Assembly (NCBI GenBank): GCA_030378015.1
Contig: JAUCGG010000017.1
Span: 1 to 46,636 of the forward strand
Direction of reading: 5' to 3'
From: Desulfococcaceae bacterium HSG8
GTDB taxonomy: Bacteria; Desulfobacterota; Desulfobacteria; Desulfobacterales; 4be13
DNA: 46,636 bases
Position numbers and translations under genes: made by a program. Shown here in pieces: positions 4,666-19,364 of this stretch; position 1 is the stretch's first letter, and each line of letters opens with the position of its first letter. The notes below the pieces were generated by a model that was not told the origin of the DNA, ran no database searches, and saw only the letters and a list, made by a program, of their open reading frames with translations.

Positions 4666-4736
4666 GGGAACCCCTTGCAAGAAGTTTGTTTATAATTGCC
4701 CAGTAAAGCCCGAGCCTGAGATTGTTTTGACAAATT

Positions 4737-4938: not shown

Positions 4939-4961
4939 AATTCATCAAATCGGACAGCTTT

Positions 4962-5050: not shown

Positions 5051-5052
5051 TA

Positions 5053-5190: not shown

Positions 5191-5209
5191 ACAAACTTTG
5201 ATCCGGTAG

Positions 5210-5410
5210 GGCGCATTTACAACTTGGGGGAGTCCCGGAGGGACGACTGAAAATAGCCCGGCAATTTATTGCCTGGGCGGATATCCCCCGTTTTTTTCAG
5301 TCCCGGAGGGACTGAATGATCCGGAATACTCACCCGGCAATGAATTGCCGGCTATTTTCAGAAGTCCCTCCGGGGACTGAAAATCACTCCCCCGACTTAT
5401 AAATACGCCC
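5210..5410. mobile_element. Family D MITE (~200 bp). TIR gggcgcatttacaactt / aagtYataaatacgccc; internal gagtcccggagggacgactgaaaatagcccggcaat palindromes.
   Basis: Second copy at 27612-27845 is flanked by a 9-bp duplication, atccgtttt. Confidence 0.7.
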
Positions 5411-5560
5411 CTCTGCAATCAGGATATCTGTTCTTTGCATACACATCGTTTTCCTTTTTAGCTGTTAGCTTTTTTCAAATTTTGCATCAGGATGTGTGAA
5501 GGTACTTCTGGCGGCGTTACCGTTCCCTTCGACAGGCTCAGGGAACGGAACCCGAATTCC

Positions 5561-5639
5561 GTAGTACAACAACTTGGAAATTCGTCCCCCTTTTATCTAT
5601 TATAAGAGAGGGGGACGAATTTCCAAGTTGTTGTAGTAG
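5561..5639 (-). terminator. Long perfect palindrome (gtagtacaacaacttggaaattcgtccccc...gggggacgaatttccaagttgttgtagtag) immediately downstream of the stop of the kinase gene at 5661. Candidate terminator or REP element.
   Basis: ~35-bp stem read directly. Position 22 bp after the stop of a minus-strand gene. No strong U-tract. Confidence 0.35.
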
Positions 5640-5660
5640 TGGGATGTTCTTTCTTGGAAA

Positions 5661-8600
5661 TCACCTAAATTCTCCTTCCGATGGCTGAGGGGAGAGGTAA
5701 AAATAAAAGGTTGCCCCCTTGCCAGACTCACTTTCTGCCCATACCCGGCCGCGGTGTCTTTGTATAATCCGTTTCACAATTGCCAGCCCGATACCCATGC
5801 CCGGAAAATCATCCGGGCTGTGAATCCGCTGGAAAACACCGAAAAGTTTGTCATAGTATTTCATATTGAAACCTGCGCCGTTATCCCTGACAAAATACAC
5901 CACCCGGTTTTCATCATCTGTATAACAGCCTGTTTCAACCAGAGGTTCCTGATTATGAGCAGAATATTTGACCGCGTTTGACAGCAGGTTCACCCATACC
6001 TGCCTCAGCATGGATAAATCACCGGTACAGGAAGGCAGATTGCAATTCATTTCAAATCTGACCTTTTCTATACCATCCTCGGAAAATTGCAAGCTTTTAG
6101 TAACTTCATCAACCAACTCATTCATATTGACCTCCCCTGTCCGAATATCCTGCCTGCTCAGTCTTGAAAAAGCAAGCAGATCATCAATCAGTTGCCCCAT
6201 CCGGACTGCCTCGCTCCTCACAACCTCCAGATAATGCCTGCCATCCCCGTCAAATTTATCCGCATATTCTTCATAAAGAACCTGGGCAAATCCGTTCACC
6301 GCTCTCAGGGGCGCTCTTAAATCATGAGACACAGAGTAACTGAACGATTTCAGTTCATCAATCATTTCTTCAAGTTGTACGGTCCGCTCTTTCACCCGCT
6401 TTTCCAGCGTCAGGTTCAGTTCTTCCAGGGCTTTTTTTGCCTGTTCGCGCTCAATAATGCGTCCCAGGCGTTCGATAATTGCTTCCATCAGGTCTCTTTC
6501 TTCTTTTGAAAAGGGACATTCATTATCTTCAGATTGTTCCCCCAGGTAACAGATATCCAGCGTACCGATTTCTTCACCATCAAGAACGATCACACCTGAT
6601 TGTTTCCATAAAGTTTCTTTGAAATTTCCTGTCTTGAACTCCTCTCCTTCCACAACCAATCTGACGCCAGTGATCTCAGGGTATTGCCAGCCCCCGGGAA
6701 TAATATCCGCAATTTTCTGAAAAATCTCTTTCAGTATAATTCCGGGTGTTTCAACAATATCCGCAATACCATAGAGACATTGCAGTTCCTTGACACGCTC
6801 TCTTAGGTCGCGGCTTTGTTTCTCCAGGGCCTTTTCACTCATTATCCTTCCCGTTACGTTTCTGGCAATCTCAATAATACCGGTTACATTTCCTTTATCA
6901 TTTTTCAGAGGTACTGCAATATCCTCCCAATAGCTTTCATCCCGGATATCTTTTACAAAGGAGTGATATATGGTAGCTGCCTCAATTTGCCATGTTTCCA
7001 GGGATTTTACAACAGGGCAGCCATCGCAGGGTTTTCTTTTGCCAGGATAGGCTTCATAACAAATCTTACCGATCTCAACAGCAGGATTCATATCAAGTGC
7101 TGTCTTATTTGCCCACAGGATATTTGAATTCGTATCAAGTTGGAGTATCACATCAGGCATACTGTTGAGGATGAGTTTCATTCGCTCTTCACTTTCGCGC
7201 AGTGCTTCTTCTGCCTGTTTCTGAAGCGTGATATCGGTCGCAATGCCGCCTATCTGGACAGGACGGCCTGTTTCATCAGATGAGATTCGTTTCCTGTCAT
7301 AAACCCAGCGCACTTCACCATCAGGACGAACAATGCGATACTCCGACTCGCTCTGTCCTTTATCGAATAACTCCCGCGCATGTTCGATCACAGGTCCCCG
7401 GTCATCGGGATGAATCACATCAAGCCACAGGTTGGAATTTTCAAGAAATTCCGCAGGGGGCCTGCCATAGATCCGGTTAGCTGCCGCGTTGATATACAGC
7501 ATTTCTGACCCGTCCGCGGTCGCTGCCCAGACCACATCATTGAGAGAGCGTAGCAGATTCCGGAAGCGGGCCTCGCTCACACGCAAGGCTTTCTTAGCTT
7601 GCCTGTACTCAGTGACGTCACGATGAGTGCCGATCATTCTCAGCGGGTGACCTGAATCATCGTATGACACGCATATACCCCGGGCCCAGATCCATCTCCA
7701 TTCCCCGGATTTATTCCGAGTCTGATACTCTAATTCATAATATTTTGCCCTGCCGTTTAAATAATCATTCAACGCGGTTTTAAAAACAGGTTTGCTGTCC
7801 GGATGAACATTTTGTTCCCACCAGTCAAAATCAAATTCCCGCTCTCCCAAAACATATCCCAATACTTTGATCCAATTATCATCAAAAAAAATATCTCCTC
7901 CGACCATATCCCAATCCCACAACCCCTGATCTGTTCCTTCCAAGGCGAGTTTCATGCGCTTCTCGCTCTCTTTCAGGGCTTCTTCCGCCTCACGGCGCTT
8001 CCGGCGCGTCCTTAATGCCATGATTCCATGTGTCAGATCATCGGCCAATCCTTCCAGCATCTCCAGTTCATCGGTGTCAAACGCGTCCGGTTCGGCCGCA
8101 TAAATATTTAAAGATCCGAGGCAACTGCCATCATGGCGAAGAGGCAGGGCAAGGCCTGAAGAATATCCCCGCTTTAAGGCTTCGGCCCGCCAGGGGGCGA
8201 AATCGGGATCTGTCATGATATGCCTGACAGATATCGGTCGGCAGGTGCGGATGGCGGTCCCGATGGGACCCCTCCCGTGTTCCGTATCTGACCAAGTAAT
8301 ATGGATTGTATCAATATACCCGTCATCATATCCGTACCTGGCCGCGGGGCGCACGGTTTTCATTTCGTCATTTTCCGCATAACCGATCCATGCCAGGCAG
8401 TATCCCCCGATTTCCACGACAATTCGGCATACCCGCTTCAGGAGGTCTGTCTCATTGCTGGTATGAGCAACTGCCCGGTTGCATTCACTGCGTGTTTTAA
8501 GTGCCCGGTTCACCCTGCGCAGGTCTTTGACCCTTTCCCGCACAGTATCTTCCAACCGCTCCTTTTCAGACCTTAATCTGTCTTCTGATTTTTTAATCCG

Positions 8601-8966
8601 CAGCATCACATTGATCTGGGCTGCCAGCTCGGATTTATCAATAGGTTTGGTCAGGAAGGCATCCGCGCCGGATTCCAGCCCTTTGACGCGGCTTTCGGAA
8701 TCTGTCCGAATCGCCGTGACCAGGATCACCGGAATATGGGCAGTCTTTCTGCCGGATTTTAATCTCTCACAGGCTTCATAACCATCCATCTCCGGCATAA
8801 AGATATCCAGGAGAATTGTATCGGGCTGCCAGTCCTCGGCGATACAGATGCCACTGCTCCCTGATGGTGCAGTGACAATCGAACAGTCCGGTATTAAATG
8901 TTCCAATAATGCCGATAATGCGATCAGATTGTCCTTATGATCGTCTATGAGCAATAATTTATTCAT
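5661..8966 (-). CDS. Multidomain hybrid sensor histidine kinase: N-terminal REC, GAF, PAS/PAC (several), HisKA, HATPase_c.
   Basis: REC (LLLIDDHKDN...ILLDIFMPEMDGYEACERLK). H-box SYSVSHDLRAPLRAVNGFAQVL. HATPase (DNGAGFN, GMGIGLAIVKRII). ATG at 8964-8966 with aaggaaat RBS. Confidence 0.88.
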   Translation of the reverse strand: MNKLLLIDDHKDNLIALSALLEHLIPDCSIVTAPSGSSGICIAEDWQPDTILLDIFMPEMDGYEACERLKSGRKTAHIPVILVTAIRTDSESRVKGLESGADAFLTKPIDKSELAAQINVMLRIKKSEDRLRSEKERLEDTVRERVKDLRRVNRALKTRSECNRAVAHTSNETDLLKRVCRIVVEIGGYCLAWIGYAENDEMKTVRPAARYGYDDGYIDTIHITWSDTEHGRGPIGTAIRTCRPISVRHIMTDPDFAPWRAEALKRGYSSGLALPLRHDGSCLGSLNIYAAEPDAFDTDELEMLEGLADDLTHGIMALRTRRKRREAEEALKESEKRMKLALEGTDQGLWDWDMVGGDIFFDDNWIKVLGYVLGEREFDFDWWEQNVHPDSKPVFKTALNDYLNGRAKYYELEYQTRNKSGEWRWIWARGICVSYDDSGHPLRMIGTHRDVTEYRQAKKALRVSEARFRNLLRSLNDVVWAATADGSEMLYINAAANRIYGRPPAEFLENSNLWLDVIHPDDRGPVIEHARELFDKGQSESEYRIVRPDGEVRWVYDRKRISSDETGRPVQIGGIATDITLQKQAEEALRESEERMKLILNSMPDVILQLDTNSNILWANKTALDMNPAVEIGKICYEAYPGKRKPCDGCPVVKSLETWQIEAATIYHSFVKDIRDESYWEDIAVPLKNDKGNVTGIIEIARNVTGRIMSEKALEKQSRDLRERVKELQCLYGIADIVETPGIILKEIFQKIADIIPGGWQYPEITGVRLVVEGEEFKTGNFKETLWKQSGVIVLDGEEIGTLDICYLGEQSEDNECPFSKEERDLMEAIIERLGRIIEREQAKKALEELNLTLEKRVKERTVQLEEMIDELKSFSYSVSHDLRAPLRAVNGFAQVLYEEYADKFDGDGRHYLEVVRSEAVRMGQLIDDLLAFSRLSRQDIRTGEVNMNELVDEVTKSLQFSEDGIEKVRFEMNCNLPSCTGDLSMLRQVWVNLLSNAVKYSAHNQEPLVETGCYTDDENRVVYFVRDNGAGFNMKYYDKLFGVFQRIHSPDDFPGMGIGLAIVKRIIQRHRGRVWAESESGKGATFYFYLSPQPSEGEFR

Positions 8967-8974
8967 GAATATTT

Positions 8975-9135
8975 CCTTTTGAAAGTGTTTAGTGTTCGGT
9001 GTTTAGGTGATTTCCGGAAAAGAATATACCAAGTGCAGTTTGTAGTTCCGCCTTCAGGCGGTGTTATGCCGCAGTTTGTAGTTCCGCCTTTAGGCGGTGT
9101 TATGCCGCCTGAAGGCGGAACTACAAACTTTGATC
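8975..9135. repeat. Cluster of family B hairpins (3 copies) plus the ggtgatttccggaaaagaata leader. Contains gtgtttagtgtt, the reverse complement of the aacactaaacac motif.
   Basis: Read directly; ccgccttcaggcgg / ccgcctgaaggcgg stems. Confidence 0.7.
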
Positions 9136-9212
9136 TGGTATGTTTTTTATTGGAAATCACCTTAATGCTCTGTTTCATAAATAATGTCCGGGTTAAAACG
9201 GAGGAGTGCAAA

Positions 9213-9500
9213 GCTTGCTTTGCGCCACTGCGGGATTCCCAATTCTCGTTCCCAGGCTCTGCCTCACTGCCATTAAGTTAAGAGAAACTCCCCCTTTGAA
9301 GGGGGATTCAGGGGGATGTTTTTTCAACACGTTACACCCCCCTGCCCCCCCTCAAGGGGGGAATTGATTCCTTAACTTAATGGCAGTGAGGCTCTGCCTG
9401 GGAATGCATCATGAGAGGCTCTGCCTCGTGTTTCACTGTAAAATAGAAGTGTTAAAACAGATACATCGCAAGGCGGAGCCTGGGAACGAGTAAACACCAA
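9213..9500. mobile_element. Family F element (ctcgttcccaggctctgcc...gcctgggaacgag) carrying a nested family-C-like insert. The insert is bounded by the inverted repeat ctcactgccattaagttaag / cttaacttaatggcagtgag.
   Basis: Nested palindromes read directly. Family F copies also at 27945-28108 and 28445-28615. Confidence 0.6.
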
Positions 9501-9575
9501 ATACCAAACACTAAACATAAACACTAAACACCAAACAGCAAACACTAAACACTAAACACCAAAGATAAAGCATCA
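9490..9575. repeat. Imperfect microsatellite (aaacacYaa)n, about 9 units. It overlaps the stop codon and C-terminus of the kinase ending at 9545.
   Basis: aaacaccaaataccaaacactaaacataaacactaaacaccaaacagcaaacactaaacactaaacaccaaag. Confidence 0.7.
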
Positions 9576-11548
9576 GTCAGGTCTTCTATTGTATAAGGCT
9601 TGGCGAGTGCCCCTGCGAAAGCGTATTTCCTGAAATCAGTTATTACCGGATCATTTGAATATCCGCTTGAAACAATGGCCCTGACATGAGGATCTGTTTT
9701 CGTAAGCGACCTGACAGTTTCCACGCCTCCGATCCCTTTTTTTATCGTCAGATCCAGTATGACAGCATCAAAAGGCTTTTCGGAGTCCGCGGCTCTTTTA
9801 TATAGTTCAATCGCCTCGGCACCGTCACAGGCAAGTTCGGTATCATATCCGATCATATCTAACATATGACTGGCAATATCCCTTATCATCTCCTCGTCAT
9901 CCATCACAAGAATTTTTCCCCTGTGTGCTGCCGGCTCTTCCCCGGGTTTCTTTTCGTGTTCCTGCTCTTTTTTCTCTTCAGTTTCTTTTTCATAAGAAGG
10001 AAGATATATGGTAAAGACAGTTCCGCTTCCCGCCTCGGATTCCACAGTTATGTGCCCCTCGTGTTTTCTGATAACTGACCAGGTTATTGTAAGTCCTAGT
10101 CCCATTCCTTTCTGTGTTCCCCTGTCCCCGGTCGAGAAATACGGATCAAAAATTCTGGTAAGATTTTCTTCCGAAATTCCGACACCCTGATCCCGGATGA
10201 TTATCTTCACATAATTCCCCTCTAAAAGCGGCAGACCTGTTCCCGATCCTATTTCCGTGTTTTCCGCGATCACAACAAGTGATCCGCACCCGGGCATAGA
10301 TTCAGACGCGTTGATAATCAGATTCCTGAGAGCCTGCCTTATCTGTACTTCGTCAAATTCGACACGCCGGAGATCAGGCTGTATGGAAAACTCACATTTG
10401 ACATCTGATCCCGACAGAACAACCTTTGTCGTTTCTCTTACTATATCAACGAGTGATCCGGCTTTTTTTACGGGTGTGCCGCCCATTGAAAATGTGATCA
10501 GTTGGCTGGTAAGGTCTTTTGCCTTCAAAGAGGCTGCTTCAGCCTTTTTCAGAAATCCGGGGCCTCTCGAATCAGGTTCCATATCCATTTCCGCCAGATT
10601 GATATAGCCCAGGATTGCAGATAAAAGATTGTTGAAATCATGTGCAATGCCGCCCGCGAGAATGCCCAGTGATTCAAGTTTCCTGGCCCTGATAACTTCC
10701 TCCTGCATTCTCTTTTTCCCGGTAATATCCCGCACGATGCCGGCTACATGCCATTTATCATTCATTTTTAAGGCTGAAACGGAAACTTCGACAGGGAACA
10801 CTGTCCCGTTCTTTCTGACAGCCTTCAGTTCAGTTGTATTTCCGGATGGAGGAATCTGCCCGGTTCTCTGGAATTCCTCAGACAATTTTCTGTAGGATTC
10901 ATGAAGTTCTGCCGGGATAAGAAGGGAATGCATCTCCTTTCCTTTTAATTCTTCAACATTGTAACCGAATATCTTTTCCGAGGCAGGATTCGAATATATG
11001 ACTTTCCCTTGGTCATCCAAAAGAATAATTGCATCGGCCGCTGCATTCATAATTGTTCCCAGCTTTTCCTCACTCTCACGCAGGGCCAGCTCTGTCTGTT
11101 TTCGCTCATGGATTTCCTGCTGAAGCCTCTGATTCTGTGTCTGCAACTGCATCTGCATTTTGCGCAGACTCAGATGGGTTCTGACACGAGCGAGAACTTC
11201 TTCTTCCTGGAACGGCTTGGTAATATAGTCCACCCCGCCAAGCTCGAAGGCCCTGACTTTGTCCCCGGTCTCATCAAGCGCGCTGATAAATATTATCGGA
11301 ATATCACGCGTGCGCTCTCCGGCTTTCAGACGGCGGCAGACTTCATAGCCGTCTGTTCCCGGCATCAGGATATCGAGCAGTATGAGATCAGGCAGCGATT
11401 TCTGAGCAACCTGGAATGCCAGTTCTCCGTTCAGCACCGGACGCACCTGATAGCCTTGCTCCGTCAATATCTGCATCAGTATATGCAGGTTTTCAGGGGT
11501 GTCATCCGCAATTAAAATATCGCTCTGTTCCGTGTCAGACTGAATCAT
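9545..11548 (-). CDS. Hybrid sensor histidine kinase/response regulator: N-terminal REC, coiled coil, PAS, HisKA, HATPase_c, C-terminal REC.
   Basis: REC (ILIADDTPEN...LILLDILMPGTDGYEVCRRLK). H-box GGIAHDFNNLLSAILGYINLA. HATPase (DQGVGI, GMGLGLTI). C-terminal REC (ILVMDDEEMIRD...AVILDLTI). First ATG at 11548 with aaaggaga RBS; the track start 11620 is TTG inside a repeat. Confidence 0.85.
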   Translation of the reverse strand: MIQSDTEQSDILIADDTPENLHILMQILTEQGYQVRPVLNGELAFQVAQKSLPDLILLDILMPGTDGYEVCRRLKAGERTRDIPIIFISALDETGDKVRAFELGGVDYITKPFQEEEVLARVRTHLSLRKMQMQLQTQNQRLQQEIHERKQTELALRESEEKLGTIMNAAADAIILLDDQGKVIYSNPASEKIFGYNVEELKGKEMHSLLIPAELHESYRKLSEEFQRTGQIPPSGNTTELKAVRKNGTVFPVEVSVSALKMNDKWHVAGIVRDITGKKRMQEEVIRARKLESLGILAGGIAHDFNNLLSAILGYINLAEMDMEPDSRGPGFLKKAEAASLKAKDLTSQLITFSMGGTPVKKAGSLVDIVRETTKVVLSGSDVKCEFSIQPDLRRVEFDEVQIRQALRNLIINASESMPGCGSLVVIAENTEIGSGTGLPLLEGNYVKIIIRDQGVGISEENLTRIFDPYFSTGDRGTQKGMGLGLTITWSVIRKHEGHITVESEAGSGTVFTIYLPSYEKETEEKKEQEHEKKPGEEPAAHRGKILVMDDEEMIRDIASHMLDMIGYDTELACDGAEAIELYKRAADSEKPFDAVILDLTIKKGIGGVETVRSLTKTDPHVRAIVSSGYSNDPVITDFRKYAFAGALAKPYTIEDLTDALSLVFSV

Positions 11549-11655
11549 TGTGTTATTCTCCTTTTCCGAGTAATTCGGACAGGGATTGACAAATCCGGCG
11601 GTATGGCTCGGATTTGCCAATCATAACCGAACCGGATGGCCTGAATAAAGACCAT

Positions 11656-11740
11656 CAGCAGGTCGAAAACTTTCCGATAACCCTTTGTGAACATCGGATT
11701 TCGGGTTAAAATTAAAAACATCCGTTTTTAATTTTTATGT
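11656..11740. repeat. Partial family E element (left arm).
   Basis: cagcaggtcgaaaactttccg...ggatttcgggttaaaattaaaaacatccgttttt. Confidence 0.55.
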
Positions 11741-11834
11741 GGAAGTATTTTGTGTTTAGGGATTTCTCAATAAATAATCTGCCCCGTCTGACCTTAATTT
11801 TAATCTTGCTCTTTATCTTTATCAAGCAGGAGAA

Positions 11835-11912
11835 GGAGCGAGAGCACAAGAGCAAGGGCAGGAGCAAGAGTAAGAGCAAGATACCGGGTATATTAATTTT
11901 GGGGAAATACCT
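11835..11912. repeat. Family H element, copy 2 (agcaag microsatellite + ataccgggtatattaattttggggaaatacc).
   Basis: Matches 205-290. Confidence 0.6.
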
Positions 11913-12024
11913 TACTTAAAGGTTTCCCGAAATTTTAGTTCTGATACGGAAAGCCTTGCTTATAAGGGATTTGCAGATCCGTCACTCCGCAGGAGCCGGT
12001 TTTAATTTATTTTCACAGCCTTTC

Positions 12025-12185
12025 TTATTTTAACCACGAAAGACACGAATTATATTCTTTTTCCGGTATCTTTCATATCAGCATAAAGGCAACTGACACT
12101 CCGGTTCGCAGTTCCGCCTTCGGCAACCGCGAACCGGAAAATGAAGGACGCTCTCTTTTTTTCGTGTGTTTCGTGGTTAAAAGGC
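12025..12185. mobile_element. MITE-like element with TIR ttttaaccacgaaagacacgaa / ttcgtgtgtttcgtggttaaaa and central hairpin ggttcgcagttccgccttcggcaaccgcgaacc.
   Basis: Inverted termini and central stem read directly. Confidence 0.6.
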
Positions 12186-12465
12186 ACTGGTTCAGTTCAA
12201 TGGAATTTTTCAGGAAATTTCCCGGATTTGCCTAAAAAAAACAGCCAGTTGCCGTATTTTCGGTGTACATATCTAACATGCTGATTTTACATGATTGCCA
12301 CTGTTTGCGAAAGTTTTCGATCTACTGACCATGATCATTTTGTGATTCTGACGTATTACATCTCATCGTTAAAATATAGCCGTCATCTGTTCAGAATGCT
12401 AAATATAACCAAGCTTAATATTCAATAAGTTAATATTCAATAAGTTAACGCACGTTCATTTAGTA

Positions 12466-12640
12466 TCAGCAGATCGAAAACTTTCTGTCCGACAGTGAAT
12501 TCCGGGTTAAAATCGGAAGATATTCATCTTCCGGTTTTCCCGGAATGACAATTTAACATACTGTTATTCCAGAAAAAATCAAAAAAAGATATTTTCAGAT
12601 TTAACCTGGAATCCACTGCTTGCGAAAGTTTCCAATTTTG
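12466..12640. mobile_element. Family E MITE copy (degenerate right end). Solo right-end fragments at 12295-12330 and 28680-28720.
   Basis: tcagcagatcgaaaactttctg...ccggaatgaca...ctgcttgcgaaagtttcc. Confidence 0.6.
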
Positions 12641-13032
12641 AGTATATAATATTCAATTGCCAGATGCAACACTATCATCAATATCTCTTGAAATACTCTT
12701 TCAATCCTATTTCAGGCAGATTGAAAGTATCCCGAAAAGCTTGATTTGGGATTGGCAAATCCCAAGCATTTCCGGCGGATTTGCCAATCGTTCGACGACT
12801 CGACAGAGCTCGCCGAAGTCTGATCTCACGCCGAATCCGCCGGGAGCGGTTCGGAGCATTTTTCATCTGCTGATAATCTGTTATACCCGAATTGTATCCG
12901 TCTCCTGTTGTTGCTTTCAGCCGAAAAAACTGATAAAGAGGTGATGAAGTCTGTTTGGGATCATGCTGTGAAGCAATTAAGAATTACGGAATAAGGGCAT
13001 TCCAAATACCCGATTCGGGTAAACAGGCACCT

Positions 13033-13103
13033 CTCCTGCTCGGTTCGGATTGACAAATCCGAACCCGCGGCGGGGGATTTGTCAATCCCCCGCGAGCAAC
13101 AGA
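13033..13103. repeat. Family G unit (solo). ctgctcggttcggattgacaaatccgaacc hairpin + cgggggatttgYcaatcccccg hairpin.
   Basis: Same unit forms a 4-copy tandem array at 29720-30085. Carries ttgaca motifs. Lies ~90 bp upstream of the MVP-like gene. Confidence 0.65.
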
Positions 13104-13191
13104 CGGGTATTTTATTTTCCGGAAATCCCTAAAGTCCGAAAGCCTGACTAAACCTGTAACCAGTAACCCTGAAAACTACAAGGAGAGCAAA

Positions 13192-15681
13192 ATGCCGGAA
13201 GAAAGAAGGGAAAGGGATCTGATACTGGCCCCCAATGAATACGCGTTCATCCTGGATGAAACCAAGGGAAATATTGTCAACTACGTGGGGCCGCATAAAA
13301 CAAGTCTGGCGAACACAGATCAGCCGGTTCTGTTCAATGATCAGACAAAGCGGTTTGACCGGTGTAACCTTGAAAAAGCCATCAAGCCCCACGCCATATC
13401 ACCCGAAGGATGGTATGTGGTGCTGAAAAATCCGGCCAGGGACGGAAAGCCCCCTACTTCCGGCACGGCAAACAGCCTCCCGGAACTGGATATCGGGCGA
13501 AAGGTCAATATTCCGGGCCCCGTATCCCTTGCGCCCTGGCCCGGACAGATGATCCGTGTCATCCAGGGACATAATTTACGTTCCAATCAGTATCTTATTG
13601 CACGGGTCTATGAGGAAGAGGCTGCAAGGATTAACTGGAAGAAAGCGGTGATCAAACCCCAGACAAGCTCAGTGGGCGAAGTATCGGACGGACCCGAGGA
13701 CGGCGTGAAGCCGGACAGGGATACACCGGATCTGACCATGGGAAAACTGCTGGTGATCCGAGGAATAGATGTCTCCTTTTATATTCCGCCCACAGGCATC
13801 GAGGTGGTTCCGGATCAGAACGGGCGTTATGCCAGGAATGCGGTAACCCTGGAGCGTCTGGAATACTGTATCCTGCTTGACGAGGATGGTAACAAACGCT
13901 ACATCCGGGGCCCCGCGGTGGTATTCCCGAGACCCACGGAGACCTTTGTGGAGAAGAACCGCTCCCGGAAATTCAAGGCTGTGGAACTGAACGAGATCAG
14001 CGGGTTGTACGTCAAAGTCATCGCTGCTTACGAAGAAGATGGCAGGGAATATAAGGAAGGCGAAGAGCTTTTTATCACCGGCAAAGAGCAGATGATCTAT
14101 TTCCCCCGTTCCGAACATGCGATTATCCGATACGGGGATCAGGAAGTCAACTACTCGGTGGCAATTCCCGCTGGCGAAGCCAGGTATGTGCTGAACAGGA
14201 TGTCAGGGCAGATCACGCTCCGAAAGGGGCCATGTATGCTCCTGCCAGACCCCCGCAAAGAAGTGATTGCCCGGCGGGTGATTGATCCCGGACTCGTGAA
14301 GCTCTGGTTCCCGGGAAATCATGAGGCACTGGAATATAACAGCCGGCTGATGAACATCACCCGGAAAGAAAAATCCGGGGAATTCGTCGAGGATCAGCAG
14401 GTCAAGAAAATGCTCAGGGATGAAGATGCTCAGACACAGGAGGGGCAGCGGACAACAGAGTTCTCGGGCGATCAGTTCACACGGAAACAGACCTTTTCCC
14501 GTCCCCGTACCGTTACCCTGGATACCAAATATGAAGGCGCGGTCTCCATCAATGTGTGGACAGGCTACGCGGTGCTGGTGATCAGCAAAACCGGGAACCG
14601 CAAGGTAATCGCAGGTCCCCAGACCTGCCTTCTCGAATATGATGAAACCCTGGAAACCGTCGAACTGTCAACCGGAACCCCGAAAACAGAGGATCATCTG
14701 ATTCAGACAGTATATCTGCGGGTGCTGCACAATAAGGTCTCGGATATTGTGGAAGCTGAAACCCGGGATCTGTGCCAGGTTCAGTTTGATGTGTCTTACC
14801 GGGTAAATTTCGAAGGCGAACCTGAGAAATGGTTCAATGTTGAGAATTACGTCAAATTCCTCACGGATCACATCCGTTCCATGCTGCGCCATGCCATCCG
14901 CCAGTATGGTATTGAAGAATTTTATACCAAAGCCATCAGCATTGTCCGGGATACTGTTCTGGGCCTGCCCGGGGAGGATGGAAAACGTCCCGGTGCATTG
15001 TTTGAAGAGAACAATATGCGTATCTACGATGTCGAAGTTCTGGATGTCATCATCGGAGATGAGGTTATTGATCAGCTTCTTGTCAGTTCCCAGCACACGA
15101 CAGTCAGGCAGACCCTGGAAATTGCATCAGAAAAGAAAAAGCTGGAAGTCACCGAGCAGAGGGAAAACATCCGGCAGGAGATCGCCAAAATCGAGGCTGC
15201 GACATCACAACTCATGATCCGCTTGGAGGAGGAAGACGTCCGGAACCGGATGGCCCCGGAGATGGCAAAAATAGAATCCGCGGCAGAGGCACAGAAAAGA
15301 AAGCTCGGGGCAAAACTGGCAGACCAGAAGACACTGGATCAGATTTATTCCTCGGAACTTGCCCGCGAAAAGGCCAAATATGATATGGGCCTGGATGTGA
15401 CCCGCCAGGAAATGGTTCAGCGGCTTGAGGAACTGAAAGCCGAGGTTCAGGCAGTAGTCAGCAAGGCAAAAGCTGTTTCTCCCCAGTTGGTGGCCGCGCT
15501 TCAGGATTTTTCGGATAAGGCCCTCGCGGAACGGATGGCTGAGGCAATGTCTCCCCTGGCAATCTTAGGGGGAAAGAGTGTTGCCGAAGTGTTCGGGAAT
15601 CTGCTCCGGGGAACGGTGCTGGAGAATGTTCTTGCCCTGTCTGAAACACATACTGCGCATGAAGATGACGCGTCTGAATAA
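13192..15681 (+). CDS. Major vault protein (MVP)-like protein, 829 aa.
   Basis: ATG with strong RBS (aaggagagcaaaATG). N-terminus ILAPNEYAFILDETKGNIVNYVGPHKTSLANTDQPVLF aligns by eye with the start of vertebrate MVP ([38 protein letters not shown], recalled from memory). Total length is close to MVP (~860-890 aa). The C-terminal ~180 aa are a Glu/Lys/Ala-rich coiled coil (IAKIEAATSQLMIRLEEEDV...AEAQKRKLGAKLADQKTLDQIY...LEELKAEVQAVVSKAKA), like the MVP cap-helix. Confidence 0.7.
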   Translation: MPEERRERDLILAPNEYAFILDETKGNIVNYVGPHKTSLANTDQPVLFNDQTKRFDRCNLEKAIKPHAISPEGWYVVLKNPARDGKPPTSGTANSLPELDIGRKVNIPGPVSLAPWPGQMIRVIQGHNLRSNQYLIARVYEEEAARINWKKAVIKPQTSSVGEVSDGPEDGVKPDRDTPDLTMGKLLVIRGIDVSFYIPPTGIEVVPDQNGRYARNAVTLERLEYCILLDEDGNKRYIRGPAVVFPRPTETFVEKNRSRKFKAVELNEISGLYVKVIAAYEEDGREYKEGEELFITGKEQMIYFPRSEHAIIRYGDQEVNYSVAIPAGEARYVLNRMSGQITLRKGPCMLLPDPRKEVIARRVIDPGLVKLWFPGNHEALEYNSRLMNITRKEKSGEFVEDQQVKKMLRDEDAQTQEGQRTTEFSGDQFTRKQTFSRPRTVTLDTKYEGAVSINVWTGYAVLVISKTGNRKVIAGPQTCLLEYDETLETVELSTGTPKTEDHLIQTVYLRVLHNKVSDIVEAETRDLCQVQFDVSYRVNFEGEPEKWFNVENYVKFLTDHIRSMLRHAIRQYGIEEFYTKAISIVRDTVLGLPGEDGKRPGALFEENNMRIYDVEVLDVIIGDEVIDQLLVSSQHTTVRQTLEIASEKKKLEVTEQRENIRQEIAKIEAATSQLMIRLEEEDVRNRMAPEMAKIESAAEAQKRKLGAKLADQKTLDQIYSSELAREKAKYDMGLDVTRQEMVQRLEELKAEVQAVVSKAKAVSPQLVAALQDFSDKALAERMAEAMSPLAILGGKSVAEVFGNLLRGTVLENVLALSETHTAHEDDASE

Positions 15682-15804
15682 TCCGCTATGCGAAGACCTG
15701 CGAGGTTTTGAAAACGACTCGACAGAGCTCGCCGAAGTCCTCGCAGGTCTGGAACTCTCAGGATAACTTGCACATCGTGTTAAGGTAAGAAAGGAAAGAA
15801 TAAA

Positions 15805-16011
15805 ATGAAATGGCAGGAAATTCGTACATATTATCCGCAACAGTGGCTCCTTATAGAACTGGAGCAGATCGCTGTTGTTGACACTTTTGCGGATTCCCTA
15901 TCCATTACGAACCTCAATGTATATGTCGGCGGGAAGGATTTGCAGAACACAGAAGGAGAGGAATTCATATCATTTCCTATAAATATCATCCCTTTGAAAT
16001 TCTTTCGCTGA
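15805..16011 (+). CDS. Small hypothetical protein (68 aa) immediately downstream of the MVP-like gene.
   Basis: ATG preceded by gaaaggaaagaataaaATG. No recognisable motifs. Could be co-transcribed with the MVP-like gene. Confidence 0.3.
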   Translation: MKWQEIRTYYPQQWLLIELEQIAVVDTFADSLSITNLNVYVGGKDLQNTEGEEFISFPINIIPLKFFR

Positions 16012-16059
16012 TAGAAAGATGCTTTGCTTGGTGCGCTTCAGCGTTCAGCGTACTTTGGC

Positions 16060-16290
16060 TTTCAGCCGGCGCAAACCGATATAAAAAATATCAGATTTCG
16101 CTTGACAACAAACCCTGGTTATGTCAGGGAAACAGAAACAGCTATCAGGAAATACACGGAATTATGAATTAAGTAAAAAAATAACTGAAGTTATCAGATA
16201 AAATTCAGATCAGAACAGTTTGCGTTAATATTACATGCTGTTCCGGTATATTATAGGTTCGGTTCGGATTTTCCGATAAAAGATTAAGGT
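16060..16290 (+). promoter_or_regulatory. Conserved ~165-bp noncoding leader upstream of DUF2887 paralog 1. Contains ttgacaac and an aatacacggaattatgaat core. Duplicated at 17265-17440.
   Basis: ~85% identity between the two copies by eye (gatataaaaaatatcagatttYgcttgacaac...agctatcaggaaatacacggaattatgaat.aagtaaaaa.ataactgaRgttatcagata). Confidence 0.45.
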
Positions 16291-17093
16291 TATGAAAACA
16301 GATGCCTTATTTTACATGCTTTTCCGACTCTCCCCGGAGCCTGTTCCGGCTTGTTAAGCTGAATCTGCAGGGAAAGTATGCTTTCGAGAGCATCACCGTC
16401 AAAACCACCGGAAAACGGTTCGACGGTTTTATGAAACGGACAGACGGCGAAGGACCGAACGTGTTCGTCGAAATTCAGGGCTACGACGATAACACGATTT
16501 ACTGGCGGTCTTTCCGTGAAGTATGTATGTGGTACGAGGAGAATGACAGCAGCAGACCGTTTATCCTGGTTATTCTTTTCACTGATGAAAAATATGATCC
16601 CGACAACCGTATGCTGTCTTGCAGACCTCCGTGCCGGCTGATCCGGAAAAATCTCGCAGACTGTCTGAAAGGGATAGGAAAGAAGGCGGGCGTGCTGACC
16701 GTTCTGAAACCGTTACTTCTTTCGGACAGCAAAAAAGACAGGGAGAAGCTGCCGAAGCTTGTTCCGCAGTGGGAGGAAGAAATCCGCTCCCCTGAACTGT
16801 CGGAACATGAAACAAAGGAAATGACAGAACTACTGATTTATGCGATTATGCAAAGATTCTCAGATCTTAATTTGGAAGAGGTACAGAAAATGATACAATT
16901 AACACCGCTTGACCAGACCGTTGCCGGTCAGGAGCTTATTCAGATAGGGATGGATAAAGGCGAAAAGAAGACTCAGGAAAAAACTGCCCGGAGCCTGCTT
17001 TCAATGGGATTGCTGACCCCGGCCCAGATTTCTCAGGCTACCGGGTTAAGCATAAAGGAAGTTAAAGGCCTTAAAAATTCGATAAAGCAATAA
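16291..17093 (+). pseudogene. DUF2887/Rpn-family (PD-(D/E)XK nuclease-like) protein, paralog 1. A 1-nt deletion near codon 16 shifts the frame relative to paralog 2.
   Basis: atgaaaacagatgcc... encodes MKTDALFYMLFRLSPEPVPAC-stop. The conserved body (KLNLQGKYAFESITVKTTGKRFDGFMKRTDGEGPNVFVEIQGYDD...) continues in the +1 frame from the internal ATG at 16302. Compare ctctccccgg here with ctctcgccccgg in copy 2. Could be a sequencing error. Confidence 0.55.
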
Positions 17094-17264: not shown

Positions 17265-17473
17265 GAAGAGCGGGCGCGCAAACGGATATAAAAAATATCA
17301 GATTTTGCTTGACAACAGACTCTGTCTGTGTCAGGGGAATCGGGAACAGCTATCAGGAAATACACGGAATTATGAATCAAGTAAAAATAACTGAGGTTAT
17401 CAGATAGATAAAATTCGGATCAGAGCAGTTTGCCTGAGTGAAAACCCCGATATTTAATACCCGGCAGCAAATT
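17265..17473 (+). promoter_or_regulatory. Second copy of the conserved leader upstream of DUF2887 paralog 2.
   Basis: See 16060-16290. Confidence 0.45.
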
Positions 17474-18277
17474 ATGAAAACAGATGCGTTATTTTACAGA
17501 CTGTTCCGACTCTCGCCCCGGAGCCTGTTCCGGCTTGTTAAGCTGAATCTGCAGGGGAAGTATGCTTTCGAGAGCATCACCGTCAAAACCACCGAAAAAC
17601 GGTTCGACGGTTTTATGAAACGCACGGACGGCGAGGGACCGAACGTGTTCGTCGAAATCCAGGGCTATGATGACGACACGATTTACTGGCGTTCATTCCG
17701 CGAGGTATGCATATGGTACGAGGAAAACAAAAGCAACAGACCGTTCATATTGATCGTTCTTTTTGTTGACGGTAAATATGATCCCGACAACCGTATGCTT
17801 TCGCCCAGACCTCCGTGCCGGCTGATCCGTAAGAATCTTGCAGACTGTCTGAAAGGGATAGGAAAAAAGGCTGGCGTACTGACCGTGCTGAAGCCGCTGC
17901 TTCTTTCGGACAGCAAAAAAGACAGGGAGAAGCTGCCGGAGCTTGTGCCCCGATGGGAGGAAGAAGTCCGCGCCCTTGAACTGCCGGAACATGAGACAGA
18001 CGAACTGACAGAACTGCTGCTATATGCCATTGTGCAGCGGTTCCGGAAACTTACCATGGAAGAGGTGAAAAAAATGATACAGTTGACACCGATAGATCAG
18101 ACTGTTGTCGGTCAGGAGCTTATTCAGATAGGGATGGATAAAGGCGAAAAGAAGACTCAGAAAAAAACTGCCCGAAGCCTGCTTTCAATGGGATTGCTGA
18201 CCCCGGCCCAGATTTCTCAGGCTACCGGGTTAAGCATAAAGGAAGTTAAAGGTCTTAAAAATTCGATAAAACAATAA
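17474..18277 (+). CDS. DUF2887/Rpn-family (PD-(D/E)XK nuclease-like, putative transposase/recombination-promoting nuclease) protein, paralog 2, intact (267 aa).
   Basis: MKTDALFYRLFRLSPRSLFRLVKLNLQGKYAFESITVKTTEKRFDGFMKRTDGEGPNVFVEIQGYDDDTIYWRSFREVCIWY matches the cyanobacterial-type DUF2887 N-terminal pattern (TDKLFYRLF...FQSVEVKQTAFRIDGVF...PVYFVEVQFQKD...). C-terminal IQLTPIDQTVVGQELIQIGMDKGEKKTQKK...LLSMGLLTPAQISQATGLSIKEVKGL resembles the DUF4351 tail. The track start 17438 is upstream; the conserved Met is at 17474. Confidence 0.7.
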   Translation: MKTDALFYRLFRLSPRSLFRLVKLNLQGKYAFESITVKTTEKRFDGFMKRTDGEGPNVFVEIQGYDDDTIYWRSFREVCIWYEENKSNRPFILIVLFVDGKYDPDNRMLSPRPPCRLIRKNLADCLKGIGKKAGVLTVLKPLLLSDSKKDREKLPELVPRWEEEVRALELPEHETDELTELLLYAIVQRFRKLTMEEVKKMIQLTPIDQTVVGQELIQIGMDKGEKKTQKKTARSLLSMGLLTPAQISQATGLSIKEVKGLKNSIKQ

Positions 18278-18562: not shown

Positions 18563-19364
18563 ATGAAAACAGATGCGTTATTTTACAGACTGTTCCGACT
18601 CTCTCCCCGGAGCCTGTTCCGGCTTGTTAAGCTGAATCTGCAGGGGAAGTATGCTTTTGAGAGCATAACCGTCAAAACAACAGAAAAACGATTCGACGGT
18701 TTTATGAAACGGACGGACGGCGAAGGACCGAACGTGTTCGTCGAAATCCAGGGCTACGATTTACTGGCGGTCTTTCCGCGAAGTATGCATGTGGTACGAG
18801 GAGAATGACAGCAGCAGACCGTTTGTCCTGGTTGTTCTTTTCACTGATGAAAAATATGATCCCGACAACCGTATGCTGTCATGCAGACCTCCGTGCCGGC
18901 TGATCCGTAAAAATCTCGCAGACTGTCTGAAAGGAATAGGAAAACACGCTGGTGTGCTGGCCGTCCTGAAGCCGCTGATTCTTTCGGACAGCAAAAAAGA
19001 CCGGGCAAGGTTGCCGGAGCTTGCGCCGCAGTGGGAGGAAGAAGTCCGATCCCTTGATCTGCCGGAACATGAAACAAAGGAAGTGACAGAACTGCTCGTT
19101 TATGCAGTTATGCAAAGATTCTCAGACCTTAGTTTGGAAGAGGTGAAAAAAATGATACAGTTAACCCCCCTTGATAAGACCGTCGCCGGCCAGGAGCTTA
19201 TTCTGATAGGGGTAGAAAAGGGAGAGATGATTGGGAAAATTCAGACAATACAGCATGTTTTGAAACGCCCGGTCTCTTCCAGAGAAAAGCTTCTGCCAAA
19301 AGATATTTATGAACTGAAAACAATACTTGGAAAATTGGAATCTGCAATGGACATGATGAGATAA
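18563..19364 (+). pseudogene. DUF2887/Rpn-family paralog 3, disrupted by an 11-nt deletion (frameshift at ~18768), with a divergent C-terminal extension.
   Basis: ggctacgat|ttactggcgg here versus ggctacgacgataacacgatttactggcgg in copy 1. The track splits it into 18563..18808 and 18789..19364. Confidence 0.7.

What the first reader, a model, noticed from the sequence alone, without database searches (positions are those of the whole stretch)
13192..15681. Bacterial homolog of the eukaryotic major vault protein
The 829-aa product has an N-terminus, overall length and C-terminal coiled coil that fit MVP, the shell protein of the 13-MDa eukaryotic vault particle. MVP is considered essentially eukaryotic, with only sporadic bacterial homologs of unknown function. 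This one has a canonical bacterial RBS and a small co-oriented downstream ORF (15805-16011). It sits next to a nuclease/transposase-like paralog array, hinting at horizontal acquisition. If it assembles into a vault-like shell in a bacterium, that would be a new type of proteinaceous compartment.
Basis: partly seen in the sequence, partly recalled or inferred. Interest (0 to 1): 0.9.

Follow-up and report, generated by a model that had tools for sequence, protein, structure and literature searches.

The report
Bacterial major vault protein homolog
This gene encodes a full-length bacterial relative of the protein that builds the eukaryotic "vault" particle; it belongs to a large bacterial and phage family that is already described but has never been studied experimentally, so it is a good test candidate and not a new discovery.

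Summary
The ORF at 13192-15681 (+) is real: 829 aa, AAGGAG ribosome-binding site, NCBI MDM8522459.1 "SPFH domain-containing protein", Desulfococcaceae bacterium HSG8. It is a genuine full-length MVP homolog. Pfam MVP_shoulder scores 96 bits. A family profile hits only MVP chains in the PDB (E 1e-40). A confident AlphaFold model (pLDDT 83.5) matches whole vault MVP (E 6e-33) and the isolated R1-R7 repeat crystals (E 6e-15). SPFH cages score far lower (about 1e-6). The protein has tandem beta repeats, an SPFH shoulder, a 136-residue helix with the same 160-degree hydrophobic periodicity as the human cap helix, and no membrane segment.

The homologs are not sporadic. There are more than 6,700 90%-identity clusters, 652 50%-identity clusters at E<=1e-30, at least 238 GTDB species across many phyla, 310 IMG/VR viral contigs and three 462-735 kb phages. 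The clade (Enhygromyxa, Microscillaceae) was described in silico in 2013 and 2019.

No neighbour is conserved; the 68-aa ORF and the DUF2887 paralogs are local. Cage assembly is likely but untested. Verdict: new member of a known, uncharacterised kind; moderate interest.

The parts
13180..13185 (+). Shine-Dalgarno sequence AAGGAG, 6 nt upstream of the ATG
   Evidence: Read directly from the sequence.
13192..15681 (+). MVP-homolog gene, 829 aa plus stop (NCBI MDM8522459.1)
   Evidence: ORF list and translation; exact match in the protein collection.
13207..14283 (+). N-terminal tandem vault-type beta repeats (residues ~6-364), six of them with a conserved G-x6-G hairpin signature
   Evidence: AF2 pLDDT above 90 with all-beta elements. 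Foldseek to murine MVP R1-R7 crystals E 6e-15, TM 0.52. hhalign repeat-to-repeat similarity: S1~S7 E 1.4e-6, S4~S6 E 7e-5. G-x6-G pairs at G26/33, G102/109, G184/191, G233/240, G290/297 and G339/346.
14284..14532 (+). Variable helical/disordered insert (residues ~365-447) between the last two repeats
   Evidence: Helices 366-372, 377-393 and 401-413, then pLDDT below 50 at 417-432. Lowest conservation and most gaps in the family alignment.
14533..14721 (+). Last vault repeat (residues ~448-510), matches Pfam Vault_3; carries G468/G475 and the conserved S493-G495-P497-K498 loop
   Evidence: Vault_3 32.4 bits for residues 466-509, found in 51 of 52 family members. Aligns to rat MVP 457-520.
14728..15057 (+). 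SPFH-type MVP shoulder domain (residues 513-622)
   Evidence: MVP_shoulder 96.4 bits and Band_7 25 bits. pLDDT ~95.
15061..15468 (+). Cap-helix-like single long alpha helix (residues 624-759)
   Evidence: AF2 helix 624-759. Aligns to the MVP cap helix. Hydrophobic periodicity peak at 160 degrees, reached by 0 of 2000 shuffles, versus 162 degrees for the human cap helix.
15469..15678 (+). C-terminal cap-ring-like tail (residues 760-829), conserved motif P-L-A-I-L-G-G-x-S-V, low model confidence
   Evidence: Conservation in A1/A2. pLDDT below 50.
15694..15750 (+). Stable stem-loop 13 nt after the stop codon (12-bp perfect arms); its loop holds a 26-nt element also present at 12795-12820; no T-run follows
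   Evidence: RNA fold -34.6 kcal/mol, z -3.6, reached by 0 of 200 shuffles. Direct repeat D3.

Best explanation
The gene encodes a soluble cytoplasmic member of the bacterial major-vault-protein family. Shown here: it is colinear with eukaryotic MVP from end to end, with about eight vault-type beta repeats, an SPFH shoulder, a ~136-residue cap helix and a conserved C-terminal tail. It is under strong constraint along its whole length. It has no membrane anchor. It is a stand-alone gene with no conserved partner. Inferred: like eukaryotic MVP, which self-assembles without other factors, many copies pack side by side through the repeats, shoulder and cap helix into a cup. Two cups probably join through the highly conserved N-terminal repeat to form a closed vault-like shell in the bacterial cytoplasm. 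What it encloses is unknown. The eukaryotic NAD+/ADP-ribose pocket is only partly kept, and no TEP1, PARP or vault RNA partner is encoded nearby, so any clients must be recruited in trans. The best available hint, from phage-encoded relatives, points to RNA or RNA-repair factors.
For: Identity as an MVP homolog: Pfam MVP_shoulder 96 bits and Vault_3 above cut-off, found in 52/52 and 51/52 family members. A profile of 102 members hits only MVP chains in the PDB, E 1.2e-40. The AF2 model (pLDDT 83.5, pTM 0.63) gives MVP as the top 12 Foldseek hits at E 6e-33 to 1e-26, then four R1-R7 repeat crystal chains at E ~1e-14. SPFH cages follow only at about 1e-6. Repeats: hhalign self-similarity and seven conserved G-x6-G hairpins, four of which align to the same motif in rat R6-R9. 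Cage-type packing: the helix at 624-759 has a 160-degree hydrophobic periodicity (0 of 2000 shuffles reach it; 82 of 102 members show it), matching the human cap helix at 162 degrees. Soluble: the maximum 19-residue Kyte-Doolittle mean is 1.25 and the N-terminus is charged. Constraint: more than 60% identity across phyla, with 181-380 and the N-terminal block as conserved as the shoulder. Stand-alone gene: no conserved neighbour in 80 loci by clustering or by Pfam tally of 105 nearest neighbours in 56 lineages. Background knowledge: MVP alone self-assembles into vaults (cited in bioRxiv 10.1101/2023.11.10.566534 and PMC13100048).
Against: No oligomer was modelled or observed; everything about assembly is inferred from a monomer model and from sequence. 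The 160-degree helix signature would also fit an SPFH-type half cage. The repeat count is probably eight, not nine, with a ~55-residue longer insert before the last repeat (offsets, spacing), so size and symmetry could differ from D39. Of the human NAD+/ADP-ribose pocket residues (PMC12280208), only K506 (K498 here) and the S-G-P of the keyhole loop are kept. R504, R507, R511, W545, P565 and K573 are T, T, I, V, E and D (mapping from the alignment). The human waist residues R9, N22, D39 and N40 map to I11, T24, T42 and D43, so they are not the same chemistry, and that alignment is weak on its own. No minor vault component or vault RNA was found in the window.
Confidence: 0.55

Rival explanations
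1. It forms a membrane-associated SPFH-type half cage, like HflK/C, flotillin or QmcA, that encloses a patch of inner membrane. The vault repeats would act as an extended wall, and no closed two-cup vault would form.
For: The shoulder also matches Band_7 just above its cut-off (25 vs 23.6 bits). SPFH cages are the next-best structural matches after MVP. PGAP names it 'SPFH domain-containing protein'. Eukaryotic vaults were recently seen bound to membranes through the shoulder region (PMC13100048).
Against: There is no transmembrane or hydrophobic segment anywhere, whereas permanent membrane anchoring upstream of the SPFH domain is the unifying feature of canonical SPFH proteins (PMC13100048). 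MVP matches are about 26 orders of magnitude better than SPFH cage matches and cover the whole length. No family, and so no NfeD- or FtsH-type partner, occurs in more than 3 of the 105 nearest bacterial neighbours.
Confidence: 0.15
2. It is a conflict-related scaffold of phage origin or phage use. The shell or scaffold would organise RNA-repair or RNA-handling enzymes during phage-host conflict, in parallel with the eukaryotic vault (MVP + TEP1 + vault RNA). The bacterial copies would be domesticated or host versions of it.
For: 310 IMG/VR viral stretches and three 462-735 kb phage genomes encode full-length relatives at 42-52% identity. In one viral lineage (16 loci) the gene sits next to a DUF2828+vWA 'RNA-binding protein' (PHROG 850, 449 bits), cREC, an RlaP nucleotidyltransferase, a metallophosphoesterase and an RNA ligase. 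In phage LR756500 it follows an RNA ligase (98 bits) and an HD/P-loop kinase, and precedes a weak Macro domain. RtcB and Thg1 each appear once among nearest neighbours in other lineages.
Against: No Pfam family occurs in more than 2 of 150 nearest neighbours across ~38 viral lineages. The 735-kb phage shows no such genes. RNA-repair genes are common in jumbo phages (PMC7824862) and no background rate was computed. None of these genes is near the window's gene or any of the 80 bacterial homologs. There is no PADLOC hit. A DUF2828-Ro60/TROVE relationship could not be shown.
Confidence: 0.15
3. It does not build a cage at all. It would be a soluble elongated scaffold or cytoskeletal element linked to gliding or filamentous lifestyle, as suggested in 2019.
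For: Sokolskyi 2019 (bioRxiv 10.1101/872010) noted that all carriers known then glide. The host family and many carriers here are filamentous or gliding groups: Desulfonema, Anaerolineae, Caldilinea, Cytophagales, Myxococcota.
Against: Carriers now include Riflebacteria, Vulcanimicrobiota, Gemmatimonadaceae, Bacillota, Synergistia, Schekmanbacteria and phages, which weakens the lifestyle link. No motility genes recur next to it. A 136-residue exposed helix with two-sided hydrophobic periodicity is hard to explain without lateral self-association.
Confidence: 0.1
4. It is a recent, possibly decaying, transfer of a eukaryotic MVP gene into this bacterium, with no bacterial function.
For: It is adjacent to DUF2887 paralogs and repeat-rich intergenic DNA. 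Gene order is not shared even with the closest relative at 80% identity.
Against: It is only ~17% identical to animal MVP in structural alignment but 58-80% identical to hundreds of bacterial proteins. The ORF is intact with a good RBS. The family has 652 50%-identity clusters at E<=1e-30. GC3 is not an outlier.
Confidence: 0.02

Closest known systems
Bacterial MVP-like proteins of Myxococcota, Cytophagales and Chloroflexota (e.g. Enhygromyxa salina A0A0C2D5V5, Microscilla marina A1ZGE7, Saprospira grandis H6L4P8, Herpetosiphon A9AUD4; Daly 2013 PMC3762200, Sokolskyi 2019 bioRxiv 10.1101/872010)
   Same: Same family. The window protein is 58-60% identical over its full length to the Enhygromyxa salina and Microscillaceae/Thermoflexibacter proteins, with the same Pfam architecture. 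JGI already labels many members 'major vault protein'.
   Different: The host is new (Desulfococcaceae). The family is far larger and taxonomically broader than the papers describe. No member has been studied experimentally.
Eukaryotic major vault protein (rat, human, rabbit vault; PDB 4V60, 9BW5, 9Z4W)
   Same: Colinear architecture: N-terminal beta repeats with the G-x6-G hairpin, SPFH shoulder, long cap helix with the same 160-degree periodicity, C-terminal tail, similar length, no membrane anchor.
   Different: About 17% identity. Probably eight repeats plus a longer insert instead of nine. The basic NAD+/ADP-ribose pocket is mostly not conserved (mapping against PMC12280208). No TEP1, PARP4 or vault RNA nearby. 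Assembly is unproven.
Phage-encoded MVPs (Caudoviricetes ctOa11 and ct2Ri15; Santos 2023, bioRxiv 10.1101/2023.11.10.566534)
   Same: Same bacterial-type family. Here, 310 IMG/VR stretches and three huge-phage genomes carry full-length relatives at 42-52% identity.
   Different: The window's gene lies in a chromosomal-looking context with no phage genes. Some phage copies sit in RNA-repair cassettes; the window's copy does not.
Canonical SPFH/Band-7 cages (HflK/C, flotillin, prohibitin, stomatin, QmcA)
   Same: Homologous SPFH domain followed by a long helix that forms a helical barrel.
   Different: Those are membrane-anchored and lack vault repeats. This protein has the repeats and no anchor.
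Asgard archaeal MVP homologs (PMC12962969)
   Same: Prokaryotic proteins with cap helix, shoulder and vault repeats, known only from predictions.
   Different: The Asgard proteins have five repeats and were modelled as ~10-mers. This family is full-length (about eight repeats) and much more widespread. The two were not compared directly here.

Membership tests
Major vault protein (MVP) family | MVP shoulder (SPFH-type) domain scoring above the Pfam gathering threshold | tested here: met
   PF11978 96.4 bits against a cut-off of 25, residues 513-622 covering 116 of 118 profile positions. Present in 52 of 52 family members.
Major vault protein (MVP) family | Tandem N-terminal vault beta repeats preceding the shoulder | tested here: met
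   Vault_3 32.4 bits against a cut-off of 28.8. PF01505 Vault is detected in 5 of 52 members. Foldseek to the R1-R7 crystals gives E 6e-15, TM 0.52. Internal repeat similarity. Seven conserved G-x6-G hairpins.
Major vault protein (MVP) family | Nine repeats (R1-R9), as in animal MVP | tested here: inconclusive
   The alignment offsets to rat MVP (0, +60, -6) and the motif spacing suggest eight repeats plus a ~55-residue longer insert. Model coordinates could not be inspected.
Major vault protein (MVP) family | Long cap-helix domain directly after the shoulder | tested here: met
   Single helix 624-759. It aligns to MVP 647-802. Its 160-degree periodicity matches the human cap helix.
Major vault protein (MVP) family | C-terminal cap-ring region | tested here: inconclusive
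   A conserved tail motif is present, but the model confidence is below 50 and there is no significant alignment beyond ~residue 783.
Major vault protein (MVP) family | Self-assembly into a closed two-cup cage (78-mer in animals) | not testable with these tools
Eukaryotic vault ribonucleoprotein (whole particle) | Co-occurring minor components (TEP1/TROVE, PARP4, vault RNA) | tested here: not met
   No vault RNA or Y RNA in the Rfam scan of the window. No TROVE, PARP or NACHT domains among the window ORFs scanned. The DUF2828/vWA phage neighbour is absent from the window and from the 80 bacterial loci. Only 46 kb of the genome is available.
Eukaryotic vault ribonucleoprotein (whole particle) | Basic NAD+/ADP-ribose pocket between adjacent shoulders | tested here: not met
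   Only K506 (K498 here) and the S/G/P of the keyhole loop are conserved. R504, R507, R511, W545, P565 and K573 are replaced by T, T, I, V, E and D (alignment, residues from PMC12280208).
Canonical SPFH/Band-7 membrane scaffolds | Membrane anchor (TM helix, hairpin or lipidation region) N-terminal to the SPFH domain | tested here: not met
   The maximum 19-residue hydropathy is 1.25. The N-terminal 510 residues are vault repeats.
Canonical SPFH/Band-7 membrane scaffolds | SPFH domain above the Band_7 threshold | tested here: met
   PF01145 25.0 bits against a cut-off of 23.6, but far weaker than MVP_shoulder. Found in only 20 of 52 members.
Operon-encoded protein compartments (encapsulin- or BMC-like logic) | Conserved adjacent cargo or partner gene | tested here: not met
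   No conserved neighbour by sequence clustering in 80 loci or by Pfam tally. The 68-aa ORF is not conserved.

The most novel reading that the evidence does not exclude
Vault-like cages are not a eukaryotic invention. This stand-alone, highly conserved protein and its thousands of relatives in many bacterial phyla and in huge phages would assemble into genuine closed vault particles in prokaryotic cytoplasm. Their original role would be to sequester or organise RNA or RNA-repair factors in virus-host conflict, which would finally give a tractable system for working out what vaults do.
Probability: 0.3. Interest if true: 0.8.

Novelty: new member of a known kind. Interest (0 to 1): 0.4.

Why it matters
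The function of the vault, the largest eukaryotic ribonucleoprotein particle, has been open since 1986. A 2026 paper still states that prokaryotic MVP homologs are known from 'only a few Bacteria' (PMC12962969). This locus adds one more carrier. The searches it prompted show that the bacterial-type family is large, extremely conserved, stand-alone, and also carried by huge phages. If a member such as this one forms cages when expressed in E. coli, it would add a new class of bacterial protein compartment. It would also give a genetically tractable route to vault function and origin. The idea itself is already published, and nothing in this window (neighbours, regulation, partners) gives a new functional handle.

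Tried and rejected
1. NCBIfam, PADLOC and PHROGs gave no hit for the protein.
2. The first AlphaFold run, with 44 close homologs, gave a poor N-terminal half (pLDDT 57). It was replaced by a run with 102 diverse sequences.
3. The AFDB50 fold library was unavailable.
4. A conserved partner was sought by all-vs-all clustering of ORFs in 80 bacterial loci and by Pfam tallies of nearest neighbours. None was found.
5. The 68-aa downstream ORF and the three DUF2887 proteins were searched by tblastn in all bacterial loci. There were no meaningful hits, so they are rejected as partners.
6. The phage neighbour DUF2828+vWA was tested for a Ro60/TROVE relationship by phmmer and by profile search against the PDB. 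Nothing was found, so 'TROVE-like' remains only a recollection.
7. Simple amphipathic periodicity (100 degrees) in the long helix was absent (z = 0.4). The real signal is at 160 degrees.
8. Compositional evidence for recent transfer was not found; GC3 is within the window's range.
9. A phylogeny against eukaryotic, cyanobacterial and Asgard MVPs was not built. No eukaryotic sequences were fetched, so placement rests on identities and on the published trees.
10. Two tool calls failed on input limits or reading frame and were rerun.
Full report
OBSERVATION. The window carries an ATG-to-stop ORF of 829 codons at exactly 13192-15681 on the + strand. AAGGAG lies at 13180-13185, six bases upstream of the ATG. 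The product is identical to NCBI MDM8522459.1, 'SPFH domain-containing protein [Desulfococcaceae bacterium HSG8]', on a contig the same length as the window. The start codon is supported because homologs align from residues 1-6 and M1 is invariant among close relatives. A stable stem-loop (15694-15750; -34.6 kcal/mol, z = -3.6) follows the stop codon. It has no T-run, so it is not a canonical intrinsic terminator. The array is three DUF2887 proteins, the third truncated. I recall that DUF2887 belongs to the PD-(D/E)XK/Rpn-like group; that was not tested here.

WHAT IT IS. Pfam gives MVP_shoulder at 96.4 bits (cut-off 25), Vault_3 at 32.4 bits (cut-off 28.8) and Band_7 at 25.0 bits (cut-off 23.6). 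The single sequence finds human and rabbit MVP chains in the PDB at E 7e-9. A profile of 102 family members finds seven distinct PDB sequences, all MVP, at E down to 1.2e-40. That profile also gives weaker colinear matches of residues 234-356 to rat 294-409 and of the N-terminus to rat 10-45.

An AlphaFold2 model built on the diverse alignment is confident: mean pLDDT 83.5, pTM 0.63, and residues 10-410 and 450-620 mostly above 90. Foldseek ranks twelve full-length vault MVP structures first (E 6e-33 to 1e-26). Four chains of the isolated murine R1-R7 repeat fragment follow (E ~1e-14, TM 0.52). Only then come the SPFH cages flotillin, prohibitin, HflK/C, erlin and stomatin, at about 1e-6.

ANATOMY. 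Residues ~6-364 and ~448-510 are beta repeats.
- Profile-profile comparison detects repeat-to-repeat similarity: S1~S7 E 1.4e-6, S4~S6 E 7e-5, several others near 1e-3.
- Seven G-x6-G hairpin signatures are conserved in at least 85% of 102 sequences. Four of them align with the same motif in rat R6-R9.
- The alignment offsets to rat MVP (0, +60, -6) suggest one repeat fewer in the N-terminal part. A ~55-residue longer helical/disordered insert (365-447) compensates. This gives about eight repeats; it is an inference.
- The shoulder spans 513-622.
- One uninterrupted helix spans 624-759.
- A conserved but poorly modelled tail follows.
- No segment is hydrophobic enough for a membrane helix (maximum 19-residue mean 1.25) and the N-terminus is highly charged. 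The protein is therefore cytoplasmic and soluble.

The long helix lacks ordinary 100-degree amphipathic periodicity. It does have a very strong 160-degree signal: 0 of 2000 shuffles reach it, and 82 of 102 members show it individually. The authentic human cap helix, taken from the alignment text, peaks at 162 degrees. I interpret 160 degrees as the aliased second harmonic of helical periodicity. That would mean two opposite hydrophobic stripes, as expected for a helix contacting a neighbour on each side in a barrel wall. That interpretation is inference; the match to the positive control is a result.

HOW WIDESPREAD.
- In the 5.8-billion-protein collection, 6,790 of the 8,000 scored candidates pass E<=1e-3. 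The best 120 are full-length at 61-100% identity. They come from Desulfobacterales, Anaerolineae, Polyangia, Gemmatimonadota, Eremiobacterota, Riflebacteria, a large sulfur bacterium and others, and many are already labelled 'major vault protein' by JGI.
- An exhaustive HMMER scan of 50%-identity representatives finds 652 clusters at E<=1e-30 and 1,345 at E<=1e-3.
- Two short N-terminal peptide patterns alone recover 238 species-representative genomes. These include Enhygromyxa salina DSM 15201, Thermoflexibacter ruber, Microscillaceae, Desulfonema, Caldilinea, Sericytochromatia and Bacillota MAGs.

The window protein is 70% identical to an Anaerolineae protein but 67% to Desulfonema, which is in its own order. 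Similarity therefore does not follow taxonomy closely, which suggests exchange between phyla. 'Sporadic' is not an accurate description of these homologs.

LITERATURE. Daly et al. 2013 (PMC3762200) listed bacterial MVP-like proteins from Corallococcus, Plesiocystis, Microscilla, Saprospira, Flexibacter and Herpetosiphon at ~25% identity to eukaryotic MVP, and predicted that they fold and dock like MVP. Sokolskyi 2019 (bioRxiv 10.1101/872010) analysed Enhygromyxa, Saprospira, Microscilla and Moorea proteins and linked them with gliding. Santos et al. 2023 (bioRxiv 10.1101/2023.11.10.566534) reported two gut-phage MVPs. [quoted passage not shown] I found no experimental study of any bacterial MVP, and the PDB holds none. 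The window protein belongs to the Enhygromyxa/Microscilla clade, at 58-60% identity.

CONTEXT. Upstream, on the opposite strand, are three hybrid histidine kinases. A 1.57-kb AT-rich, repeat-laden spacer separates them from the gene. Downstream are the 68-aa ORF, the DUF2887 paralogs, a large secreted Lcl_C/Reprolysin/BACON protein, and further on a 5,059-aa adhesin-like ORF.

Nothing is conserved next to the gene. Clustering all ORFs from 80 bacterial loci yields only generic histidine kinases, in 15 loci. A Pfam tally of the 105 nearest neighbours in 56 dereplicated lineages finds no family in more than three. The 68-aa ORF and the DUF2887 proteins have no counterpart in any of the loci. Even the closest relative (80% identity, Desulfobacterales HSG2) shares no synteny. 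The gene's GC3 (0.60) is within the window's range of 0.48-0.61. There is thus no co-encoded cargo, no operon partner, and no specific sign of recent acquisition at this locus.

PHAGE RELATIVES AND A FUNCTIONAL HINT. The family profile finds 310 stretches on IMG/VR viral contigs that encode full-length relatives at 42-52% identity; many are on contigs of 100-436 kb. GenBank's phage set has three: LR756500 (462 kb) and LR756501/LR756503 (735 kb). The 735-kb size matches the largest genome reported in the huge-phage study PMC7162821, which I believe is their source.

- In one viral lineage (16 loci, partner proteins 65-99% identical) the MVP gene is flanked by five RNA-related genes. They are a DUF2828 + vWA-like protein (PHROG 850 'RNA-binding protein', 449 bits), a cREC domain protein, an RlaP nucleotidyltransferase, a metallophosphoesterase and an RNA ligase.
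- In LR756500 it follows an RNA ligase (98 bits) and an HD + P-loop kinase, and precedes a borderline Macro-domain protein.
- LR756501 shows nothing similar.
- Across ~38 dereplicated viral lineages no family recurs in more than two of 150 nearest neighbours; RtcB and Thg1 appear once each.

RNA-repair genes are common in jumbo phages (PMC7824862) and I computed no background rate. I therefore treat this as a lead and not as evidence. My recollection that DUF2828 is TROVE-like could not be confirmed. None of these genes is near the window's gene.

MECHANISM. Shown: full-length MVP architecture, strong constraint along the whole length (the N-terminal block and residues 181-380 are as conserved as the shoulder), solubility, a cap-helix packing signature, and stand-alone genetics. 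Inferred: lateral self-assembly into a cup and N-terminal dimerisation into a closed vault-like shell, as in eukaryotes where MVP alone suffices.

Cautions:
- The human NAD+/ADP-ribose pocket (PMC12280208) is largely not conserved. Only K498 (human K506) and the S-G-P of the keyhole loop remain. R504, R507, R511, W545, P565 and K573 are replaced by T, T, I, V, E and D (mapping).
- The human waist residues R9, N22, D39 and N40 map to I11, T24, T42 and D43. These are invariant within the close family but chemically different, and the mapping rests on a weak alignment.
- The repeat number, and therefore the particle size and symmetry, may differ from animal vaults.

I put cage formation at roughly 0.55. 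The alternatives are a membrane-associated half cage (0.15), a conflict/RNA-repair scaffold role (0.15, not exclusive of a cage), a non-cage scaffold (0.1) and a decaying eukaryotic import (0.02).

VERDICT. This is a new member of a known, already published and database-annotated family whose function is unknown. The locus itself offers no new functional handle. The useful by-products are the true size and breadth of the family, its stand-alone genetics, the cap-helix periodicity shared with human MVP, and its presence in huge phages, sometimes beside RNA-repair genes. Interest 0.4.

Noticed in passing
window 45681-45755 (-) and 30408-45587 (-): A c-di-GMP-I-GGC riboswitch (72.7 bits against a gathering score of 59) sits directly upstream of a 5,059-aa ORF. 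That ORF is full of FG-GAP, SBBP, NHL, thrombospondin-3, SpaA-like and GEVED repeats. It looks like a giant surface adhesin under c-di-GMP control.
   Followed up: partly
window 5231-5276 (-), 27633-27678 (-), 27768-27812 (+): Three matches to the Acido-Lenti-1 small RNA family score above the gathering score (40.9-51.7 bits). This is unexpected for a Desulfobacterota host.
   Followed up: no
window 29716-30081 and 30087-30410; single units at 11584-11622, 12750-12789 and 13032-13103: A palindromic REP-like element recurs 14 times against 0.16 expected; it is built of GGATTTGCCAATC inverted pairs about 26 nt apart. It forms a 95-bp x 3.8 tandem array, followed by a 131-bp x 2.5 array, just 3' of the giant ORF. 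Three single copies lie in the spacer upstream of the MVP-like gene, one about 90 bp before its start codon.
   Followed up: partly
window 12795-12820 and 15714-15739 (+): An exact 26-nt direct repeat (ACGACTCGACAGAGCTCGCCGAAGTC) brackets the MVP-like gene. The downstream copy forms the loop of the post-stop hairpin. Its meaning is unknown; a mobile-element footprint or a regulatory motif are possibilities.
   Followed up: partly
window 15805-16011 (+): The 68-aa ORF has no Pfam hit and no conservation. Its first 20 residues match the start of the PADLOC candidate-defence model PDC-M08A (E 1.6e-6, profile positions 1-20 of 86). This suggests a truncated remnant.
   Followed up: partly
window 16302-17093, 17438-18277, 18789-19364 (+): Three tandem DUF2887 paralogs score 92, 104 and 23.5 bits. 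[quoted passage not shown] They are not linked to MVP homologs elsewhere.
   Followed up: partly
L134, L140, L142, L143, L145-L152, L154, L155, L157, L161 (IMG/VR); for example L145 4319-5884 next to the MVP gene at 6001-8466: One lineage of large viral contigs places a full-length MVP homolog inside an RNA-repair-type cassette. The cassette holds a DUF2828+vWA 'RNA-binding protein', cREC, an RlaP nucleotidyltransferase, a metallophosphoesterase and an RNA ligase. The 2023 phage-MVP preprint, which looked only for TEP1 and vPARP by BLAST, does not report this.
   Followed up: partly
L166 (LR756500.1, 462-kb phage) 6298-16459; L165 (LR756501.1, 735-kb phage) 11998-14427: Huge-phage genomes encode full-length MVP homologs at 44-46% identity. 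In LR756500 the gene follows an ATP-grasp protein, an AAA ATPase, an RNA ligase and an HD/P-loop kinase. It precedes a borderline Macro-domain protein and a sigma factor.
   Followed up: partly
window 418-2262 (-): A single 614-aa ORF fuses a LytB/IspH domain (314 bits) to a UbiA prenyltransferase domain (44.5 bits). This is an unusual fusion of the last isoprenoid-precursor step with a prenyltransferase.
   Followed up: no
window 24308-27259 (-): A 983-aa ORF has no Pfam or PADLOC hit. It contains 21-, 24- and 42-nt tandem repeats at 25879-26211, which implies a repetitive low-complexity protein segment.
   Followed up: no
window 2749-11620 (-): Three consecutive hybrid histidine kinase/response-regulator genes with PAS and GAF domains lie divergently upstream of the MVP-like gene. 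Histidine kinases were also the only, weakly, recurrent neighbours of homologs (15 of 80 loci), which probably reflects their sheer abundance in these genomes.
   Followed up: partly
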